DNA of 33,237 bases from a virus. Taxonomy: Duplodnaviria; Heunggongvirae; Uroviricota; Caudoviricetes. The notes under the pieces were generated by a model. That model did not search any database. It was not told where the DNA came from and saw nothing but the letters and a program-made list of their open reading frames with translations. Location: the IMG/VR virus record IMGVR_UViG_2609459797_000007; one strand, given 5' to 3'. The translations under genes were made by a program, and so were the position numbers. This document shows, piece by piece, positions 9,652 through 32,139 of the stretch (positions are counted from its first letter, which is position 1; each line of letters opens with the position of its first letter).

Positions 9652-9905
9652 TTATTCTTCATTCCATTGCTGAGGCAAGTTAAGTCTGTTTAGTTTACCC
9701 AAGCGTTGATTTTATACAACAAAACATGCAGCGTTTAAGCAAGAGATATTAGTGTTTTTTGACATTTTCTACATATTTTCAACTGCACAAGCGTGCACAA
9801 AAACGCACAATAAACAGGGTTTTATTTTTGATGGATCTCCGCAGGATCTGCGCTGGTTAGCAGCGGATCTGCAAGTGCACAAAAACAGGCGTGTTTGTTG
9901 CGCGC

Positions 9906-9924
9906 AGGTGACGGGGGGAAAGCC
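9906..9924. other. cos site, candidate cohesive-end sequence GGTGACGGGGGGAAAGCCC (P2/186 cos-like)
   Basis: G-rich 19-mer resembling the P2 cohesive end as I recall it (GGCGAGGCGGGGAAAGCAC). Lies immediately upstream of the Q-P packaging genes as in P2. Flanked by repeated GTGCACAAAAAC motifs near 9790 and 9872. Confidence 0.5.
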
Positions 9925-10110
9925 CGCGCGGCGGGGGGGGAAGGGGTATACCTCAAATATAGGGAAATTGGCGCAATTCTGGCGCGCTGCTGCGTTCTGT
10001 GTGTTGTGTGCGGGTAATGGCGTGTTTAGATTATGGGGCGCTTAGAATGGCGCTGGCGTGCCGTGTATTGATGTGATGCGGAGAGCGCCGCCGGGATGGC
10101 GGCGGGTTGG

Positions 10111-11172
10111 TTATTTCATGGTTTCCAGCAGGGCGTAAGGTTTAAAGCGGATCACTTCTTCCCCCAGCCAGTCGTTGACGTGCTTCAGCGCTTCCATTGC
10201 TGGCATTAGTTCGTTGATGGCAAACACGCGCGCGGCCTTCTCCACATCACCGAATGAGCCGTTGCCGTCCGGCATGGCCCCCATCAGTTGCGGTGGTACG
10301 CGGTGAGCCGCCAGAATGTCATCGCGTGTCGCTGATTTAATATTTAAAAACTCATCCTTTGCTGATATCTGGCTGAAGGGCATCAGTTGTACCCCGTCTT
10401 TACCGCCGCCTGGCGCGTGGATCACTACGTTCTTAAATGCCCCTTTGTTTCTGGCTCCCGCCAGTGTTTGCTGTATGACTTTTACGCCAGCGTCGTCCAC
10501 CTGTGATGTGCCGATATACAGAATGCATCCGGCATGAGATCCGTTTTCGTAATACATCTTGCGGAACATGTCCGCCGAGTGTGACAGGCTGGCTGACAAT
10601 AGCGCGCCCATGTACTCCGGCATCCCGTAGATCTCCTGATGAATGTCAGGGTTCAACACATGGCAGACAGAGCCGGTTTTAAAAGCTGATTCGTCTTTCC
10701 ACTGCCTGATAAACCAGTATGTATCCAGGTCAATGCCACGCCGGGTGTATTTCGCCGGGGAATGGCGGAGCGGTAGCAGCCCGCCTAGTCGGTTATTTCG
10801 TTCTTCCAGGTAGAAGTTGCCAAACACAAACCAGTCAAGCGCCAGGGCGGAGAACGTCTGGCGAGACAGTAGCGGGTGTGGGATGAAGAAACCCGCCAGC
10901 GCGTTGCGCTTGAAGTACAGCGCTGACTGGTGCCAGGACGCCTTGCCGAATGAGCGCGCAAGCCCGTACCAGTCCACCGGTGTTTCGTAATATCTGCCGT
11001 TATCGGCGCAATACATATTGTCGAGCAGGTCGTAAGCGTCAGCGACCTGGTATGGCCCATCAAAGGTGAAAGCGCTAAGGGCTGGATCGCGCTTCAGTGC
11101 TTCACCAATATCATGTTGCTGTGTACCGTCAGTAAGCATAGTCAGGCCGCTTTCGTGTGTTGTTGTGTTCAT
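10111..11172 (-). CDS. Q: Portal (capsid vertex) protein, P2 gpQ family
   Basis: About 353-aa ORF next to cos and downstream of the terminase ATPase; its ATG overlaps the P stop (TAATG). Size and synteny match P2 Q. The track's longer start at 11253 overlaps P and is unlikely. Confidence 0.8.
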   Translation of the reverse strand: MNTTTHESGLTMLTDGTQQHDIGEALKRDPALSAFTFDGPYQVADAYDLLDNMYCADNGRYYETPVDWYGLARSFGKASWHQSALYFKRNALAGFFIPHPLLSRQTFSALALDWFVFGNFYLEERNNRLGGLLPLRHSPAKYTRRGIDLDTYWFIRQWKDESAFKTGSVCHVLNPDIHQEIYGMPEYMGALLSASLSHSADMFRKMYYENGSHAGCILYIGTSQVDDAGVKVIQQTLAGARNKGAFKNVVIHAPGGGKDGVQLMPFSQISAKDEFLNIKSATRDDILAAHRVPPQLMGAMPDGNGSFGDVEKAARVFAINELMPAMEALKHVNDWLGEEVIRFKPYALLETMK

Positions 11173-12896
11173 TAAAACTCTCTTACGGAACCGCCGCCGC
11201 TGCCGTTCTCGCGTCCAAGTGGCTCGTTGATGATTGCCAGCATATTTGCCCAAGCTAAGTCGCCATGACTGACGCCGCGCGCGCGATCGGTGTCATAGGT
11301 AATTTGTCCACCGGCGGTGGTGATTTTCCTGACGGCGTTGAATGCTGACACTAACGCCTGTTCACTACGGTCATACTCCCAGCGGCCCGCGCGGATCACC
11401 TGCTGCATTTTGAGTACCAGAGTGCGCTTTGATGACAGCGACATGATGAAACAGACCGCCGCCGGGAAGAATTTCTTGACCAGTTGCCAGACCGCTTCAC
11501 CAATGCCGGTACCGTCAATTGCGATGTGCCGGACGTTGTATTTAATGGTCAGGTCTTCGATCACTTTGGCCTGTTCTTCAAACTCCATCCCGCGTAGCTG
11601 GCGCGTCTCTATCGTGCGGAACTTGCCGCCACTGACCAGGGGAGGGGTAACCACGGAAACAGCGCCGCTGTCACCGTTGCCACTGCCGCCGTTGGCGTCG
11701 TAGCCTATCCAGACTTCACGATCGCCAAGCGGGCGGGGGGCGTAGGGTTTCCAGTCCTGCCAGTCGTCGTAGCCGTCCGCGCCGCACGTCAGTAGCTGAT
11801 TAAGTGAGAAAACGGATTCGCCTTCTTTGACGAACTCACACATGTACAGGTTGGTGTATTCATCCGGGGTATTTTCGTCCTGAATTTCTTCCAGATCGGT
11901 GAACTCCCAGCCGTGGTCGATCACGTCCTTCAGGGTGACAATCTGCCGCCAGGTTTTGTCCGGGCACAACAGGCCGCTGTTGAGTGTCTTCCAGCTTGTG
12001 TCGAAGTCTACCCGGCTGGATTTGGCCCGCTTCTCATTCCAGCGCTTGCCCGTCCAGAACGGGTAGGCTTCATGGTTTTCGCTCGATGGCGTTGAAAAGT
12101 AAGTGCGCGTAAGCCCTTTCAGGGTTGCCATAGCTCCAGCTACTTTGCGAAGGTTTGCAAAGTTACCTACCCAGAAAAACTCATCAAAAAACAGGTTGCC
12201 GGTGTAGCTCTGCGCGGTAGCGGCAGACGTGCCGAGAAAATGCAATTCAGCGCCGTTCGACAATAGAATTTTGTCACCGCCTTTTAGTTCTACGTCTACC
12301 TCTTCGGCAATCTTCTGGATGAAGCCACGGAACTGGTGCGCCTGGCGACGCGACGCTGATAGAAAAATCTGGTTGCGCTGATATCCGTGCTTAATGTCAT
12401 CTCGCAGCGCCTGTAATAGTGCCTCGCGGGCAAAGTACCAGGTTGCGCCAATCTGGCGGCTTTTCAGGATCATGCGGTTTCGTTGCTGGCGCTGTTCAAA
12501 CCATCCCTGCTGATGCCAGGCCAGAGAGTCCTGAATCTTTTCCCGTAGCGCGGCGATCTGCGCTTCGGTGAAGTGGTTTTTCTTCTTGCTCGCGCGCGCC
12601 TTCTTGAAGGGTTGCGCCGGTTGCCCTTCTGCCAGTTTCTTCACCTGGCGCGTGAGCGCGTCGATTTCTTTCAGATCGCTGCCGGTCTTCGTTGGTTTCA
12701 TCGCGATTTGGCATAACCGGGCATCAATAGATTGCGTGACGCGCTGAATTGCGGGCGTTTCGTCCCATTCGTCGCGTTTCTTCCACGAATAAACCGTGTT
12801 TGAACTGATACCCATCAGGCGTGAAATCTCTGCTGGCGGGTAGCCCTGCCAGTAAAGCTGCTTTGCTCTCTGTCTTACAAATGCGTCCTGGATCAT
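11172..12896 (-). CDS. P: Terminase large (ATPase) subunit, P2 gpP family
   Basis: Roughly 575-600-aa ORF divergent from O. Start taken at the internal Met (12896) because the track's start at 12980 would run through the late-promoter dyad. Synteny with P2 P. Confidence 0.8.
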   Translation of the reverse strand: MIQDAFVRQRAKQLYWQGYPPAEISRLMGISSNTVYSWKKRDEWDETPAIQRVTQSIDARLCQIAMKPTKTGSDLKEIDALTRQVKKLAEGQPAQPFKKARASKKKNHFTEAQIAALREKIQDSLAWHQQGWFEQRQQRNRMILKSRQIGATWYFAREALLQALRDDIKHGYQRNQIFLSASRRQAHQFRGFIQKIAEEVDVELKGGDKILLSNGAELHFLGTSAATAQSYTGNLFFDEFFWVGNFANLRKVAGAMATLKGLTRTYFSTPSSENHEAYPFWTGKRWNEKRAKSSRVDFDTSWKTLNSGLLCPDKTWRQIVTLKDVIDHGWEFTDLEEIQDENTPDEYTNLYMCEFVKEGESVFSLNQLLTCGADGYDDWQDWKPYAPRPLGDREVWIGYDANGGSGNGDSGAVSVVTPPLVSGGKFRTIETRQLRGMEFEEQAKVIEDLTIKYNVRHIAIDGTGIGEAVWQLVKKFFPAAVCFIMSLSSKRTLVLKMQQVIRAGRWEYDRSEQALVSAFNAVRKITTAGGQITYDTDRARGVSHGDLAWANMLAIINEPLGRENGSGGGSVREF

Positions 12897-12961
12897 GCGG
12901 TGTCCTCTCGTTTCGATGGAGAGATTAACCCGCGCGCGTGGGCCGTTCCCGCTGTTTGGGT

Positions 12962-12988
12962 TGTGGGCTTTCTCTGACAACTAAAACG
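12962..12988. promoter_or_regulatory. Late promoter element: TGT-N12-ACA dyad (12962-12979) within the conserved 18-mer TCTCTGACAACTAAAACG (12971-12988), in the divergent P/O region
   Basis: TGT-N12-ACA is the established binding element for the Ogr family at P2 late promoters. The same 18-mer recurs at 30614-30631. Confidence 0.6.
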
Positions 12989-13052
12989 CGTTGAGACAAT
13001 GACTTACCAACTGACATCATGGAAAAACAGAAACCAACCGGCAGGAAAGAAC

Positions 13053-13892
13053 ATGAGTGAAACCAGCAAACCTACCCGGAAGAAATTCCGCGTTGCCGTC
13101 TCCGGTGCCACCGTTGACGGGCGCGAAATTCGACCAGATCACCTCCGTGATGCTGCCGCGAGCTATAGCCAGGACGTTTACGGCGCTCGCGTGAATGTTG
13201 AGCATTATCTCTCGCCTTATCCAGGCAGTGATTTTGGCGCGATGGGGGATGTTACGGCGCTTAGCGCTGAGGACATTACCGAAGGCCCGCTAGCGGGGCG
13301 CACTGCGTTATATGCGGAAATTGAACCTTCAGCGCAAATGAAGGCGCTGACAGATGCCGGTAAGAAAGTCTATTCCAGTATCGAATTGCACCCGCAATTT
13401 GCACTAAACGGTAAGGCCTACATTGTCGGCTTGGCGATGACTGATACCCCGGCAAGCTTGGGCACTGAGCGTCTGAAGTTTGCGGCCCAGCAGCGTCAGC
13501 AGGTACAGGCGTTCAATCAGCAGCAGGGCGAAAGCGCGATGTTCTCTGATGCCATTGAAGCTGAAACGATCGAACTGGCAGGGCAGCGAAGCGATGAAGG
13601 TAGCAAGTGGTTTAGCCGCATGAAGGAACTTCTGACCAAAAACCATAAAACAGATGGCGAGCAATTCAGCCAGGTGCGCGAAGTGGTTGAAGGTGTTGCC
13701 ACGTCTCAGGCGGGCCTTATCGATCAAGTTGCGGAACTGACAAGCCAGCGCGCTGACGACGCTAAGGAAATCCAGAAGCTGACCAGTGAGCTGACCGACC
13801 TGAAAACCACGCTGGCAAAGCAGGACGCCAACACCTTCAGCCGCCAGCCCGCACAGGGCGGTAACACCGGCGTCGAACAGGCCGATTACTAA
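13053..13892 (+). CDS. O: Capsid scaffolding protein, P2 gpO family
   Basis: About 279-aa ORF; N-terminus KKFRVAVSGATVDGREI agrees with my memory of P2 gpO (FRIGVEGDTCDGRVI). ATG 13053 with RBS chosen so the start lies downstream of the late promoter. Confidence 0.8.
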   Translation: MSETSKPTRKKFRVAVSGATVDGREIRPDHLRDAAASYSQDVYGARVNVEHYLSPYPGSDFGAMGDVTALSAEDITEGPLAGRTALYAEIEPSAQMKALTDAGKKVYSSIELHPQFALNGKAYIVGLAMTDTPASLGTERLKFAAQQRQQVQAFNQQQGESAMFSDAIEAETIELAGQRSDEGSKWFSRMKELLTKNHKTDGEQFSQVREVVEGVATSQAGLIDQVAELTSQRADDAKEIQKLTSELTDLKTTLAKQDANTFSRQPAQGGNTGVEQADY

Positions 13893-13915: not shown

Positions 13916-15001
13916 ATGGAAAACAGTACCCGCGTACTTTTTAACGGCTATATCGATCGCCAGGCCAATTTAAGTGGCGTTCGTTCAGATGATGTCGCCA
14001 AGTCCTTCAGCGTTGAGCCGTCTGTGCAACAGCGCATGGAAAAGGCATCAATGGAAAGTGATGATTTTCTGAAGAAAATTAACGTCTTTCCGGTAAAAGC
14101 CCAGGAAGGTCAGAAAATCCAGATCGGTAGCAAAGGCCCGATTGCGAGCACCAGTAACAGCAGCGACGGCAACTCCCGCCGCAATCCGGTAGACAATCAC
14201 TCTAAAGAGCCGAGCACCTACCGCTGCCGTAAGACCAACTACGACTCAGCCGTAAGCTATTCGCAGTTAGACGCCTGGTCTATGCAGCCTAATTTTCAGT
14301 CACTGATCAGCGAGGCAAACGCCCGACAGGTTGCGCTCGACCGTATCATGATCGGTTTCAACGGTACGTCATACGCTGAAAAATCTGATCGTGCCGCCAA
14401 CCCGATGTTACAGGATTGTGGCGTTGGCTGGCTTCAGAAAATCCGCAACGATGCCCCGCACCGCATTATCAGTAAGGTCACTCTGACTGCGCGTGATGAA
14501 GATAACAAAATTGTCGCCAAAGGCACCTATGGCAACCTCGACGCGGCTGTGTTCGACGCCAAAAACACGTTGATGGATAAATGGCAACGTAAAGCGCCGG
14601 ATCTGGTCGTGATTCTGTCGGCTGACCTGCTTACCAGTAGCTATTTCCCGAAACTGAACGCGCTGAGCCAGACCAATCCGAACAGCGAACTGATCGCGGC
14701 ACAGTTGATTGTGTCCAGTGAAAAAGTTGGCGGTCTGCCGGTGGTCTTCGCGCCGTATATGCCTGATGACTGCGTGCTGATCACGTCACTGAAAAACCTG
14801 TCTGTGTATTACCAGTTGGGTGCGCTTCGCCGAACCATCAAAGAAGAACCGGAATATGACCGCGTGGCTAACTACCAGTCCTCAAACGATGACTTCGTTG
14901 TAGAAGACTACGGCAAATGCGCATTCATTGACGGGATCACCTTCGCGGAGGCCGCCCCGGAAACGCAGTCCGCAGAACCTGAAGAGAACGCGGGCGCGTA
15001 A
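13916..15001 (+). CDS. N: Major capsid protein, P2 gpN family
   Basis: 361-aa ORF in the O-N-M-L block; size matches P2 N (357 aa). Confidence 0.85.
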   Translation: MENSTRVLFNGYIDRQANLSGVRSDDVAKSFSVEPSVQQRMEKASMESDDFLKKINVFPVKAQEGQKIQIGSKGPIASTSNSSDGNSRRNPVDNHSKEPSTYRCRKTNYDSAVSYSQLDAWSMQPNFQSLISEANARQVALDRIMIGFNGTSYAEKSDRAANPMLQDCGVGWLQKIRNDAPHRIISKVTLTARDEDNKIVAKGTYGNLDAAVFDAKNTLMDKWQRKAPDLVVILSADLLTSSYFPKLNALSQTNPNSELIAAQLIVSSEKVGGLPVVFAPYMPDDCVLITSLKNLSVYYQLGALRRTIKEEPEYDRVANYQSSNDDFVVEDYGKCAFIDGITFAEAAPETQSAEPEENAGA

Positions 15002-15044
15002 CTGAAATTGCGGGCGTATATGCGCCCGCCACCAGGAGACTCAA

Positions 15045-15866
15045 ATGTTAACCCCAGCGCAAAAACACTTTCAGAAAGTGATGGCTGATCGACGCGGAGA
15101 CAGCGCCGCACAGCATGGCGTTGTTCGCACCGCGCATGAGCAAATTTTGCATCGTCTACGCCTCGATCAGGCATCTCTTAAGGCGGTGCAATCTACTGAA
15201 ACAAAAGCTGTGATGAAGCGTGACATGTTGCCGAATTACCAGGGCTGGATTGATGGAACTCTGGAGGGCGACAGCGGGCGGCAGGACGAAGTGATTACCA
15301 CGATGATGCTGTGGGCGATCGACTGCCAGGACTACCCGCAAGCGCTGAAGATTGGGCGCTATGTGGTGAAGCATGACCTGTCTATGCGTGACGATTTCAA
15401 GCGTACCGCGCCGGTGATGCTGGCTGAAGAAATCAGCAACCAGGCGCTGAACGTCGCGACGACTGACGCTGAGGCGGATATGTCGGCTTATGTCACCGTG
15501 CTCGATGACCTGGCGGAGATTGTCGCCGGGGCTGATATGCCGGACGAAGTGCAATCCAAGCTTTGCAAGGCCCGCGCTTTCTCACGCCGTGGAACGGCTG
15601 ACAATGAGACAAAAGGCGAAGCGCTAAAACTGTTTCGACGTGCGACGGAACTGAACCCCGCAGCGGGTGTGAAACGTGAAATGCAGTCTATTTCACGCGA
15701 ACTGAAGAAGCTGGCGGCGCAACCGGAAGCGACAGCACAACCGGAGCCTGTGCCGGTTGTCGTAGAGAAGAAAACCGTACGTAAGTCGCGCGAGGCTAAA
15801 GCTGCGAAACCGGCAGCAAAAGCCCGCGCACCACGTAAAACGGCGAAAGTTAAAAAAGAATCTTAA
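15045..15866 (+). CDS. M: Terminase small (endonuclease) subunit, P2 gpM family
   Basis: 273-aa ORF after N with an AGGAG RBS. Basic Lys/Ala-rich C-terminal tail. Synteny. Confidence 0.8.
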   Translation: MLTPAQKHFQKVMADRRGDSAAQHGVVRTAHEQILHRLRLDQASLKAVQSTETKAVMKRDMLPNYQGWIDGTLEGDSGRQDEVITTMMLWAIDCQDYPQALKIGRYVVKHDLSMRDDFKRTAPVMLAEEISNQALNVATTDAEADMSAYVTVLDDLAEIVAGADMPDEVQSKLCKARAFSRRGTADNETKGEALKLFRRATELNPAAGVKREMQSISRELKKLAAQPEATAQPEPVPVVVEKKTVRKSREAKAAKPAAKARAPRKTAKVKKES

Positions 15867-15963
15867 CGACTTCGGCCCCGACCGACAGGAGGCACGCGCG
15901 GAGATCTGCCCGTAACTGGTCTTTTCACCGCGTGTCCACCTCCTGACTTTTTAAGGAGCGCTC

Positions 15964-16461
15964 ATGAGTAGCCTGATAGCGACAAAAACGCCGTTTCCGG
16001 CTGGCAGTGACGTAACTGATGTTGATGACGGAGATTCCACGGTAACGGCGGGAAGTTTCTGGCCTGTCATTAACCTGAAGGATTTACGCCTTGCCGCGCG
16101 TATTACCGGCGGCGTCACTACTTCGCGACTGATGCACGTCACTACCGAGGCTGTGGGACACGTCATCGAACAGCTTGAAGAGTGGCAGATCAATCAGCAG
16201 GGGCTGGGCTATGAGGCGCTGAAGAACGTGCCCGCCGTGGAGATAAACGGCGAGAGCGTGAAGGTGTATCGCTACCGTCGTGCGGTTTATTCCATTGCCC
16301 GCGCCCTGGTGATTGAAGGTTACCGGGACGTTGATACCACGCCAAAAGGCGACAAAGACGCCGCCGCGCTGGATTTGCAGCGTGAAGATCTCTGGCGTGA
16401 TGCTCGCTGGGGTATTGCAGACATCCAGCGCAAGCCGCGCGTTTATGCGGAGTTGTGCTGA
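15964..16461 (+). CDS. L: Head completion/stabilisation protein, P2 gpL family
   Basis: 165-aa ORF with an AAGGAG RBS. Size and position match P2 L (169 aa). Confidence 0.8.
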   Translation: MSSLIATKTPFPAGSDVTDVDDGDSTVTAGSFWPVINLKDLRLAARITGGVTTSRLMHVTTEAVGHVIEQLEEWQINQQGLGYEALKNVPAVEINGESVKVYRYRRAVYSIARALVIEGYRDVDTTPKGDKDAAALDLQREDLWRDARWGIADIQRKPRVYAELC

Positions 16462-28771: not shown

Positions 28772-28825
28772 TGTTTTAATCTCCGAGCGGCATCATCACG
28801 ACGCCGCACCTGTAGTGGTTGTTTG

Positions 28826-29338
28826 TTACCCCATGCCCAGCGCAGACATCACGCGGGAAGGGTAAATATTTTCGCCGTTGCGTTTGTAGACGAAGTTAAG
28901 CAAGTCGATTTCCCATAGGGGTTTATCGTCAATTGACAGCTTGTAGTACGTGTTTTTAATGGCGTAGGTCACGGATGTGTCTTCACCCTGTTTGCTTTCG
29001 CCGCCGTCGATTTCAGTGAACTTGCCGCGCATTTCCACATCAACGATCTGGCTCTCGCCAGACGTGTAATACTCCCCGGTAAAGCGGATTAGCGTACCGT
29101 CCAGATCGCCGCCGTACTCCAGAAGTAGAGCCTGAACCAGACCGCCAACAACCATCGTTGCATCAAGTGCGCCGCTATCCAGTCCGAGATCGACGGCAAC
29201 GGAACCAATCATGCCGCCGCCCTGGTAGTCTTCCGTTTTCCGGGTCAGTTTTGGCAGCGTCACAGATGTCACTTTGCCGATATTGTTTACGCTGTTCACG
29301 AAGCAGGTGAACAGCCGCAATTTTGCTGGAATCGCCAT
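28826..29338 (-). CDS. FII: Tail tube protein FII
   Basis: 170-aa ORF directly downstream of the sheath gene; size and synteny match P2 FII. Confidence 0.85.
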   Translation of the reverse strand: MAIPAKLRLFTCFVNSVNNIGKVTSVTLPKLTRKTEDYQGGGMIGSVAVDLGLDSGALDATMVVGGLVQALLLEYGGDLDGTLIRFTGEYYTSGESQIVDVEMRGKFTEIDGGESKQGEDTSVTYAIKNTYYKLSIDDKPLWEIDLLNFVYKRNGENIYPSRVMSALGMG

Positions 29339-32109: not shown

Positions 32110-32113
32110 TGAA

Positions 32114-32139
32114 GGCCCCGCAGACGCGGGGCTTTTTTT
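32114..32139 (+). terminator. Rho-independent terminator after ogr (GCCCCGC-agac-GCGGGGC followed by T7)
   Basis: GC stem and 7-T run read directly, 5 nt after the ogr stop. Confidence 0.8.

What the first reader, a model, noticed from the sequence alone, without database searches (positions are those of the whole stretch)
15010..15029. GC hairpin between capsid gene N and terminase small subunit gene M
GCGGGCG-tatatg-CGCCCGC lies 9 nt after the N stop and directly before the M Shine-Dalgarno, with no U-tract. It could be a partial terminator or RNA stability element that raises the capsid transcript level relative to downstream genes.
Basis: seen in the sequence. Interest (0 to 1): 0.2.

Follow-up and report, generated by a model that had tools for sequence, protein, structure and literature searches.

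The report
Conserved hairpin after phage capsid gene
A short GC-rich RNA hairpin sits between the capsid gene and the small terminase gene of this P2-like prophage; it is real and conserved in many relatives, and most likely helps keep capsid message more abundant than downstream message, which is an ordinary kind of element.

Summary
GCGGGCG(U)-AUAU-(G)CGCCCGC lies at 15010-15029. It starts 8 nt after the stop codon of the P2-family capsid gene N and ends 4 nt before the Shine-Dalgarno AGGAG of the small terminase gene M. No U-tract follows it.

It is not chance. Among 12 close relatives, only 1 of 16 stem positions varies, and that change keeps a G·U pair. All 4 loop positions vary, as do 50-76% of third-codon positions.

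Of 102 P2-family loci, 68 have a 42-66 nt N-M spacer, and every one holds a GC hairpin. The other 34, including P2 and 186, have spacers of 31 nt or less and no hairpin. At least one lineage lost the hairpin by a 21-nt deletion, so it is dispensable.

An analogous U-less hairpin follows the tail-tube gene in all 80 loci surveyed.

Best reading: an mRNA stem-loop that blocks 3'-exonucleases at the decay boundary (malEFG-type), possibly also a weak attenuator, raising O-N message over M. A canonical intrinsic terminator is not supported. Covariation is weak, and there are no transcript data.

This is a new member of a known kind, of low interest. Separately, the M-L spacer (15867-15963) holds a strongly covarying structure that is absent from Rfam and deserves its own follow-up.

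The parts
13916..15001 (+). Major capsid gene N (P2 family). Its stop TAA is at 14999-15001.
   Evidence: Pfam PF05125, E 3.4e-125; ORF list.
15010..15017 (+). 5' arm of the hairpin, GCGGGCGU.
   Evidence: Invariant in 12 close relatives except C to U at 15017 in the window itself.
15018..15021 (+). Loop AUAU.
   Evidence: All 4 columns vary among close relatives: ATAT, TTTT, TTAG, TTGA, TTTA, ATT, ACT.
15022..15029 (+). 3' arm of the hairpin, GCGCCCGC.
   Evidence: Invariant in the clade.
15034..15038 (+). Shine-Dalgarno AGGAG of gene M. It lies 4 nt after the hairpin and 6 nt before the ATG.
   Evidence: Sequence. Predicted to be neither consistently paired nor consistently open across lineages.
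15045..15866 (+). Terminase small subunit gene M.
   Evidence: Pfam PF05944, E 6.3e-41.
28787..28807 (-). Analogous element: the hairpin GCGGCGUCG-uga-UGAUGCCGC between the tail-tube gene (FII-like, 28826-29338) and the E-like gene (start 28771). The Shine-Dalgarno GGAG follows 2 nt later, and there is no U-tract.
   Evidence: A hairpin occupies this junction in all 80 surveyed loci (59 unique junctions) and separately in P2 itself.

Best explanation
The hairpin most likely acts in the late O-N-M-L... polycistronic mRNA, on the + strand. It is a short, very stable stem-loop placed directly 3' of the capsid gene.

Proposed mechanism: after endonucleolytic cleavage somewhere downstream, 3'-to-5' exonucleases (PNPase, RNase II) degrade the M-distal RNA and stall at the stem. 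The O-N segment therefore outlives the M-L... segment. Capsid protein is needed in hundreds of copies per virion, and terminase only catalytically, so capsid is made from more message. A minor contribution from RNA polymerase pausing or weak attenuation at the hairpin is possible. The element tunes expression rather than being essential.

Shown here: the structure, its selective conservation, its recurrent position, and its dispensability.

Inferred only: RNA-level action, the exonuclease barrier, and the effect on the N:M ratio.
For: 1. A stable local fold, beyond chance.

2. Purifying selection on both arms. Only 1 of 16 stem columns varies among 12 relatives, and that change gives U·G. By comparison, 4 of 4 loop columns, 50-60% of flank columns and 50-76% of third-codon columns vary.

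3. The spacer lengths are bimodal. 68 of 102 P2-family loci have a 42-66 nt N-M spacer, and each contains a hairpin of -12 to -22 kcal/mol. The other 34 have spacers of 31 nt or less and none. 16 of 19 representative spacers fold better than 95% of shuffles.

4. Some lineages carry stems of different sequence at the same place: L019 CAGCUGCGCGC, L063 GCAGGCCAGC, L082/L084 GCAGGCCG, L085 GCCGGGGGA, L050 GGUGGGGG.

5. Internal G·U pairs in L031 and L082 hold only on the + strand.

6. The same design follows the other very abundant virion protein, the tail tube, in all 80 surveyed loci and separately in P2. It occurs in this window at 28787-28807.

7. Canonical U-tract terminators do exist at operon ends in this window, so this U-less hairpin is a different device.

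8. The mechanism is established for E. coli operons. A protective 3' structure stabilises malE, and such conserved structures mark decay boundaries in at least 12% of operons (Dar & Sorek 2018, PMC5927463).
Against: - No transcript data of any kind are available.
- Formal covariation is weak. The homologous family (34 distinct sequences) has a nearly invariant GCGGGC/GCCCGC core with a single compensatory change. RNA structure therefore cannot be separated from sequence-specific conservation.
- The strand asymmetry in folding energy is not significant (p = 0.25).
- M has a strong Shine-Dalgarno and an ATG in all lineages, with or without the hairpin, so there is no sign that M needs to be kept low.
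- P2 and 186 manage with a 3-4 nt junction.
- Natural deletions of the hairpin exist, so any effect is modest.
Confidence: 0.45

Rival explanations
1. A leaky transcriptional attenuator or pause site. The hairpin makes a fraction of RNA polymerases stop or pause after N, so fewer transcripts reach M. This would resemble the inefficient terminators between structural genes of phiX174 or T7.
For: - The hairpin strength and GC content are typical of terminators.
- Some other lineages have partial T-runs after the stem, such as GUUAUUCGG, CCUUUCGG and CUUUGGGG (3-4 T in 8).
- The P2 record itself labels a U-less hairpin in the same operon a 'putative transcription attenuator'.
- Weak terminators blocking 20-40% of transcription sit between the phiX174 structural genes (bioRxiv 10.1101/2020.03.05.979765).
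- Leaky terminators are common in phages (PMC9163698).
Against: - The window and its clade have 0-2 T in the 8 nt after the stem, and the scan does not call the site on the + strand.
- From established knowledge of enterobacterial intrinsic termination, a U-tract is needed for transcript release.
- The hairpin begins 8 nt after the stop codon, so a ribosome coupled to RNA polymerase would hinder co-transcriptional folding (inference).
- True terminators in this window carry T7 runs.
Confidence: 0.2
2. An element serving gene M rather than gene N. One version is a 5' stem-loop that protects the M-L... RNA after RNase E cleavage just upstream (papBA-type). Another is a structural insulator that keeps the M ribosome-binding site free of long-range pairing with the G/C-rich end of N.
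For: - The distance from the hairpin to the M ATG is tightly constrained at 11-20 nt, mostly 15-19.
- The window has AA|AUU, a match to the RNase E motif RN|WUU, immediately 5' of the stem (sequence; motif from PMC5927463).
- Every hairpin-bearing spacer carries a strong Shine-Dalgarno.
Against: - The AAAUU match is not conserved: L011-L014 have CAGC or UAGC, and the L036 group has GCAC(U).
- Predicted Shine-Dalgarno accessibility is variable and not systematically high.
- Stabilising the low-copy terminase message rather than the capsid message has no obvious benefit.
- Junctions without a hairpin also have strong Shine-Dalgarno sequences.
Confidence: 0.15
3. No current function. The hairpin would be a decaying relic, such as a former terminator or a small palindromic insertion, that is merely tolerated between two genes.
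For: - It is absent from P2 and 186.
- It has been lost by a clean 21-nt deletion between CGGGG repeats (L001/L017 compared with L051).
- It is missing in L087 although N is 98% identical to hairpin-bearing L090.
Against: - A neutral relic would not keep 15 of 16 stem positions fixed while loop, flanks and synonymous sites vary.
- It would not keep a GCGGGC/GCCCGC core across lineages whose N proteins are only about 50% identical.
- There is one copy in the window, so it is not a dispersed repeat.
Confidence: 0.1
4. A DNA-level site: a palindromic binding site for a phage or host protein, or a recombination hotspot at a module boundary.
For: - The near-invariance of the GCGGGC...GCCCGC core over deep divergence looks more like sequence recognition than pure structure.
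- Folding energy is similar on both strands.
Against: - Other lineages have unrelated stem sequences at the same place.
- Internal G·U pairs in L031 and L082 break the DNA dyad but keep RNA pairing on the + strand.
- Loop length and sequence vary freely.
- No mosaic breakpoint is evident at the junction in the pairs examined, since both flanks stay similar.
Confidence: 0.05

Closest known systems
Protective 3' stem-loops at decay boundaries inside operons (malE-malF intergenic structure; 'differential operon decay', Dar & Sorek 2018, PMC5927463; selective RNA processing and stabilisation, PMC4423207)
   Same: A stable stem-loop lies directly 3' of the gene whose product is needed in excess. 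It sits inside a polycistronic unit, has no requirement for a U-tract, and is conserved among relatives.
   Different: Decay rates and 3' ends have not been measured here. The malE element is a REP repeat present in many copies, whereas this hairpin is single-copy. Many E. coli examples lie inside the downstream coding region, whereas this one is in a 43-nt spacer.
Leaky terminators between structural genes of small phages (phiX174 TJ, TF, TG; T7 and LUZ100 terminators after the major capsid gene)
   Same: The hairpin follows the major capsid gene and allows read-through into downstream genes. The presumed purpose is to set stoichiometry.
   Different: Those elements are described as Rho-independent terminators with measured read-through. 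Here there is no U-tract and no measurement.
P2 'putative transcription attenuator; O operon' (NC_001895 8399-8417, GCUGGCAC-gcu-GUGCCAGC)
   Same: The same operon in the type phage holds a GC hairpin without a U-tract between late genes, annotated by the record's authors.
   Different: It is at a different position (before R, within lysC) and has an unrelated sequence. P2 has no hairpin at its N-M junction (3 nt gap).
Rfam RF03012 Mu-gpT-DE (element downstream of the Mu-type major head gene; function unknown)
   Same: This is the only Rfam model with any score here. From the family name and my memory of its description, it is likewise a structure placed after a phage major head gene and ending at the ribosome-binding site and AUG of the next gene. 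The cmscan consensus ends in CAGGAGAU..ACAUG.
   Different: It scores 14.3 bits against a gathering score of 49. The match rests on a 4-bp outer helix plus the Shine-Dalgarno and AUG. The outer helix CCUG/CAGG is not maintained in relatives (CUGG in L002, CCGG in L011). The capsid family is also different.

Membership tests
Canonical intrinsic (Rho-independent) terminator | GC-rich stem-loop | tested here: met
   8 bp (7 G-C plus 1 U·G), 4-nt loop, -15.4 kcal/mol.
Canonical intrinsic (Rho-independent) terminator | U-tract immediately 3' of the stem | tested here: not met
   The tail CACCAGGA has 0 T in 8, and the clade has 0-2. The site is not listed on the + strand by the scan. Operon-end terminators in the window have T7 runs.
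Canonical intrinsic (Rho-independent) terminator | RNA 3' ends and a drop in read-through at the site | not testable with these tools
   Needs Term-seq or in vitro transcription.
Protective 3' stem-loop / differential operon decay (malEFG type) | Stable structure directly 3' of the more highly required gene, inside a polycistron | tested here: met
   The hairpin starts 8 nt after the N stop. N and M are co-directional with no promoter-like site between them. By homology with P2, O, N, M and L form one operon (P2 record).
Protective 3' stem-loop / differential operon decay (malEFG type) | Structure conserved among relatives beyond the neutral expectation | tested here: met
   1 of 16 stem columns varies, against 50-76% at third-codon positions. 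A hairpin is present in 68 of 102 loci.
Protective 3' stem-loop / differential operon decay (malEFG type) | Longer half-life of the upstream segment and exonuclease-trimmed 3' ends at the stem | not testable with these tools
   Needs a rifampicin chase and 3'-end mapping.
Rfam RF03012 Mu-gpT-DE | Covariance-model score at or above the gathering threshold (49 bits) | tested here: not met
   14.3 bits, E 0.48-3.7. There is no match at gathering thresholds anywhere in the window.
REP/BIME-type dispersed extragenic palindromes | Many copies of the same palindrome in the replicon | tested here: not met
   The 3' arm CGCCCGC pairs with a nearby 5' arm only at this site. Model R1 finds one significant hit in the window (50.6 bits); the next best has E 0.77. 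The host chromosome was not available to search.
papBA-type 5' protective stem-loop | RNase E cleavage site just 5' of the hairpin, conserved | tested here: inconclusive
   AA|AUU is present in the window at 15005-15009 but absent in L011-L014 and the L036 group. Cleavage itself is not testable here.

The most novel reading that the evidence does not exclude
The N-M hairpin may not be just a generic stability stem. It could be one of a set of sequence-specific GGCGG/CCGCC-type RNA sites, together with the tube-E hairpin and the strongly covarying M-L element with its invariant CCACCGCC bulge motif. A phage or host factor would read these sites to set late-gene stoichiometry or the timing of the downstream lysis genes. 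The near-invariance of the GCGGGC/GCCCGC core across lineages whose capsid proteins are only about 50% identical is compatible with this reading.
Probability: 0.07. Interest if true: 0.6.

Novelty: new member of a known kind. Interest (0 to 1): 0.25.

Why it matters
If the reading is right, a large branch of the P2 family adjusts the capsid-to-terminase message ratio with an optional intercistronic hairpin. This branch includes Novemvirus, Reginaelenavirus, Gemsvirus, Xuanwuvirus, Serratia KSP20 and this prophage. The type phages P2 and 186 instead use a 3-4 nt coupled junction.

That offers a natural gain-and-loss series for testing how much such hairpins contribute to virion stoichiometry. 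It also flags features that genome annotations of these phages currently omit. It does not change any general concept.

Tried and rejected
- **Rfam.** At gathering thresholds there is nothing in the window. At E up to 10, only the sub-threshold Mu-gpT-DE match and two miRNA chance hits appear.
- **Megablast against phages.** No match, so close annotated relatives are lacking. Distant blastn gave 66-69% relatives whose records do not annotate the hairpin.
- **RNAalifold on a MAFFT alignment of 46 spacers.** No consensus structure, because the stems are in different registers.
- **Covariation on sequence-based and model-based alignments.** Only 1 compensatory pair, so covariation cannot carry the case.
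- **Strand test by folding-energy asymmetry.** Not significant.
- **Minus-strand terminator (tail AAUUUCAGUU).** Rejected. The tail is not conserved beyond the nearest relatives, it partly reflects the complement of the stop-codon context, and no minus-strand gene ends there.
- **Shine-Dalgarno masking or translational coupling by long-range pairing.** No consistent pairing of the Shine-Dalgarno across 25 lineages. The CCUG/CAGG helix suggested by the Mu-gpT-DE alignment is broken in relatives.
- **Alternative pairing with the upstream direct copy GCGGGCGC at 14990-14997.** The copy is degenerate in L011-L014 and L009, so the pairing is not conserved.
- **Literature searches.** No description of a P2-family N-M or FII-E stem-loop was found. 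The supplement describing Mu-gpT-DE is not held.

Full report
**What is there.**

The window is IMG/VR contig UViG_2609460356_000007 (L008, 100% match). It is a P2-family prophage with these late genes (Pfam; ORFs):

| Gene | Coordinates | Strand |
|---|---|---|
| portal Q | 10111-11253 | - |
| large terminase P | 11172-12980 | - |
| scaffold O | 12999-13892 | + |
| capsid N | 13916-15001 | + |
| small terminase M | 15045-15866 | + |
| head completion L | 15964-16461 | + |

The 43-nt N-M spacer reads UAA-CUGAAAUU-GCGGGCGU-AUAU-GCGCCCGC-CACC-AGGAG-ACUCAA-AUG. RNAfold adds a closing U·G pair, giving 8 bp with a 4-nt loop. The hairpin alone is -15.4 kcal/mol and the spacer -17.4 kcal/mol. There is no T in the 8 nt after the stem.

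**Is it more than chance?**

The spacer folds 2.9 standard deviations better than dinucleotide shuffles (1 of 200 as good). The whole 33-kb window has three perfect 7-bp all-G/C stems, against 0.23 expected. The other two lie just past the end of Q and in the canonical terminator at 32111-32136. A covariance model of the junction finds this single copy in the window, so the hairpin is not a dispersed repeat.

**Conservation in close relatives.**

Twelve contigs have N proteins 86-96% identical to the window's. Their spacers keep both arms, while the loop changes (ATAT, TTTT, TTAG, TTGA, TTTA, ATT, ACT).

| Region | Columns that vary |
|---|---|
| stem | 1 of 16 |
| loop | 4 of 4 |
| 5' flank | 4 of 8 |
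| 3' flank | 9 of 15 |
| N third-codon positions | 76% |
| M third-codon positions | 50% |

The single stem change is C to U at 15017 in the window itself. It keeps a wobble pair and makes this the weakest copy in its clade (-15.4 against -16.2 to -18.1).

**Wider survey.**

I surveyed 102 P2-family loci with usable junctions, from IMG/VR, GTDB genomes and GenBank phages. The N-M junction is bimodal.

- 34 loci have a spacer of 2-31 nt and no hairpin. These include P2 (TAACCGATG), 186 and the Halopseudomonas prophages.
- 68 loci have a spacer of 42-66 nt, and every one contains a GC hairpin of 6-11 bp (-12 to -22 kcal/mol). It starts 6-29 nt after the stop and ends 11-20 nt before the ATG, just ahead of a strong Shine-Dalgarno.

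Named phages with the hairpin include phiT5282H (Novemvirus), 3LV2017 (Reginaelenavirus), KSP20, 500465-2 (Gemsvirus) and P88 (Xuanwuvirus). None of their records annotates it.

Most copies share a GCGGGC/GCCCGC core and are recognisably homologous: 38 hits to model R1, all at this junction. Several lineages carry quite different stems at the same place: L019, L061/L063, L082/L084, L085, L090 and L050.

**Limits of the structural evidence.**

Because the core hardly varies, formal covariation is weak. There is one compensatory pair (A-U in L058) on both the MAFFT-based and the model-based alignments, and the covariation score is barely above the controls. Folding energy does not differ significantly between strands.

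The only strand-specific hints come from G·U pairs that exist only on the + strand. Two of these are internal, in L031 and L082. In total there are about 6 on the + strand against 2 terminal ones on the - strand. The case for selection therefore rests on arm-versus-loop conservation and positional recurrence, not on covariation.

For contrast, the M-L spacer in the same operon shows textbook covariation (see below).

**Dispensability.**

L001 and L017 (an Erwinia psidii prophage) differ from the phiT5282H-type junction by a clean 21-nt deletion between CGGGG repeats. The deletion removes the 3' arm and keeps the Shine-Dalgarno, and the flanks are 93-97% identical. L087 lacks the hairpin although its N is 98% identical to that of hairpin-bearing L090. 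The element is optional.

**A parallel elsewhere in the genome.**

On the minus strand, the 54-nt gap between the tail-tube gene and the E-like gene holds GCGGCGUCG-uga-UGAUGCCGC (28787-28807). GGAG follows 2 nt later, again with no U-tract. A hairpin occupies this junction in all 80 loci surveyed (59 distinct junctions), with many different stems. P2 itself, checked separately, also has one.

So U-less GC hairpins follow the genes for the two most abundant kinds of virion subunit. From established knowledge of P2 virions, capsid and tail tube/sheath are made in hundreds of copies, whereas terminase and tail chaperones are needed in small amounts.

**Mechanism.**

The anatomy matches protective 3' structures at decay boundaries within operons. 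This mechanism was shown experimentally for malEFG and found to be widespread and conserved in E. coli (PMC5927463).

It does not match a canonical intrinsic terminator. There is no U-tract, whereas the operon-end terminators in this same window have T7 runs. A ribosome stopping 8 nt upstream would also overlap the 5' arm (inference).

A weak attenuator or pause remains possible. The P2 record labels another U-less hairpin in the O operon a 'putative transcription attenuator'. Leaky terminators after capsid genes are known in phiX174, T7 and LUZ100.

Models in which the hairpin serves M find little support. These are a papA-like 5' protective stem, Shine-Dalgarno insulation, and Shine-Dalgarno masking for coupling. 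The RNase E-like AA|AUU is not conserved, and predicted Shine-Dalgarno accessibility is inconsistent.

**Comparison with known families.**

Rfam has no family for the hairpin. The only faint match is Mu-gpT-DE (14.3 bits against 49). That match comes from a 4-bp outer helix plus the Shine-Dalgarno and AUG, and the helix is not maintained in relatives. The hairpin is best filed as a new, unannotated member of the known kind 'intercistronic stabiliser/attenuator hairpin'.

**Verdict.**

Novelty is low, and I score interest at 0.25.

The most noteworthy by-product is the M-L intergenic structure (15867-15963). It has two helices, 15 of 18 pairs with compensatory changes, and a covariation score of 0.548 against 0.145 in shuffles (0 of 500 reach it). 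The motifs GGCGG and CCACCGCC are essentially invariant in the 28 aligned junctions apart from rare compensated changes; the window itself reads GGAGG and CCACCUCC. It is present from P2 and 186 to Halopseudomonas prophages and is absent from Rfam and from the P2 and 186 annotations.

Noticed in passing
window 15867-15963 (+), the M-L intergenic spacer; homologous spacers in L001-L109, P2 (L028 5901-5999) and 186 (L029 6648-6739): A conserved two-helix RNA structure. It has a small hairpin with a C-rich loop, then a long helix. The long helix has a near-invariant outer stem (N)GGCGG/CCGCC(N), an unpaired C on the 5' side, an invariant CCA bulge on the 3' side, a strongly covarying inner stem and a variable tip. 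A U-rich tail and the Shine-Dalgarno of L often follow. In 28 diverse junctions, 15 of 18 pairs have compensatory changes, and the covariation score is 0.548 against 0.145 in shuffles (0 of 500 reach it). Six G·U pairs at one position point to the + strand. There is no Rfam hit even at E up to 10, and the structure is not annotated in the P2 or 186 records. It could be a leaky terminator or attenuator before L, X and the lysis genes, or a protein-binding regulatory RNA. It looks like an undescribed structured RNA motif.
   Followed up: partly
window 28787-28807 (-); L117-L196; P2 L116 11375-11430: A GC hairpin lies between the tail-tube gene (FII) and gene E in every P2-family locus surveyed (80 loci, 59 distinct junctions). 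The stems are very diverse and usually have no U-tract. In the window's clade the hairpin abuts the Shine-Dalgarno CGGAG. A few lineages (L172, L181) have a long U-rich tail and look like true terminators.
   Followed up: partly
window 14990-14997 compared with 15010-15017: The last codons of N (GCG GGC GCG, Ala-Gly-Ala) repeat the 5' arm of the hairpin (GCGGGCGC) 20 nt upstream, so an alternative pairing with the 3' arm is possible on paper. The upstream copy is degenerate in L011-L014 (GCAGGCGC) and in L009/L018, so this is probably coincidence or a local duplication.
   Followed up: partly
L009, L010, L018 (IMG/VR contigs); junction about 14 nt upstream of the ancestral stop: In these relatives N ends at an earlier TAG, after a 21-nt insertion near the C-terminus. 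The old TAA stop is left in the spacer, which is lengthened to 57 nt. The hairpin is unchanged.
   Followed up: no
window 10086-10104, just past the stop of Q (10111, - strand): The hairpin CGCCGCC-aucc(c)-GGCGGCG at the end of the P-Q operon has no U-tract on the Q strand (tail CUCUCCGCAU). It has a T-rich tail on the + strand (GGTTGGTTAT), where a 97-aa ORF (9752-10045) converges. P2's tQ at the equivalent place has a normal U6 tract.
   Followed up: no
L112 (Klebsiella phage ST16-OXA48phi5.4, NC_049450) 1245-1279: The annotated M start is only 13 nt after the N stop, yet model R1 gives a weak minus-strand hit at 1259-1279, just inside the annotated start. The start codon of M may be mis-annotated, with a hairpin hidden in the annotated 5' end.
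   Followed up: no
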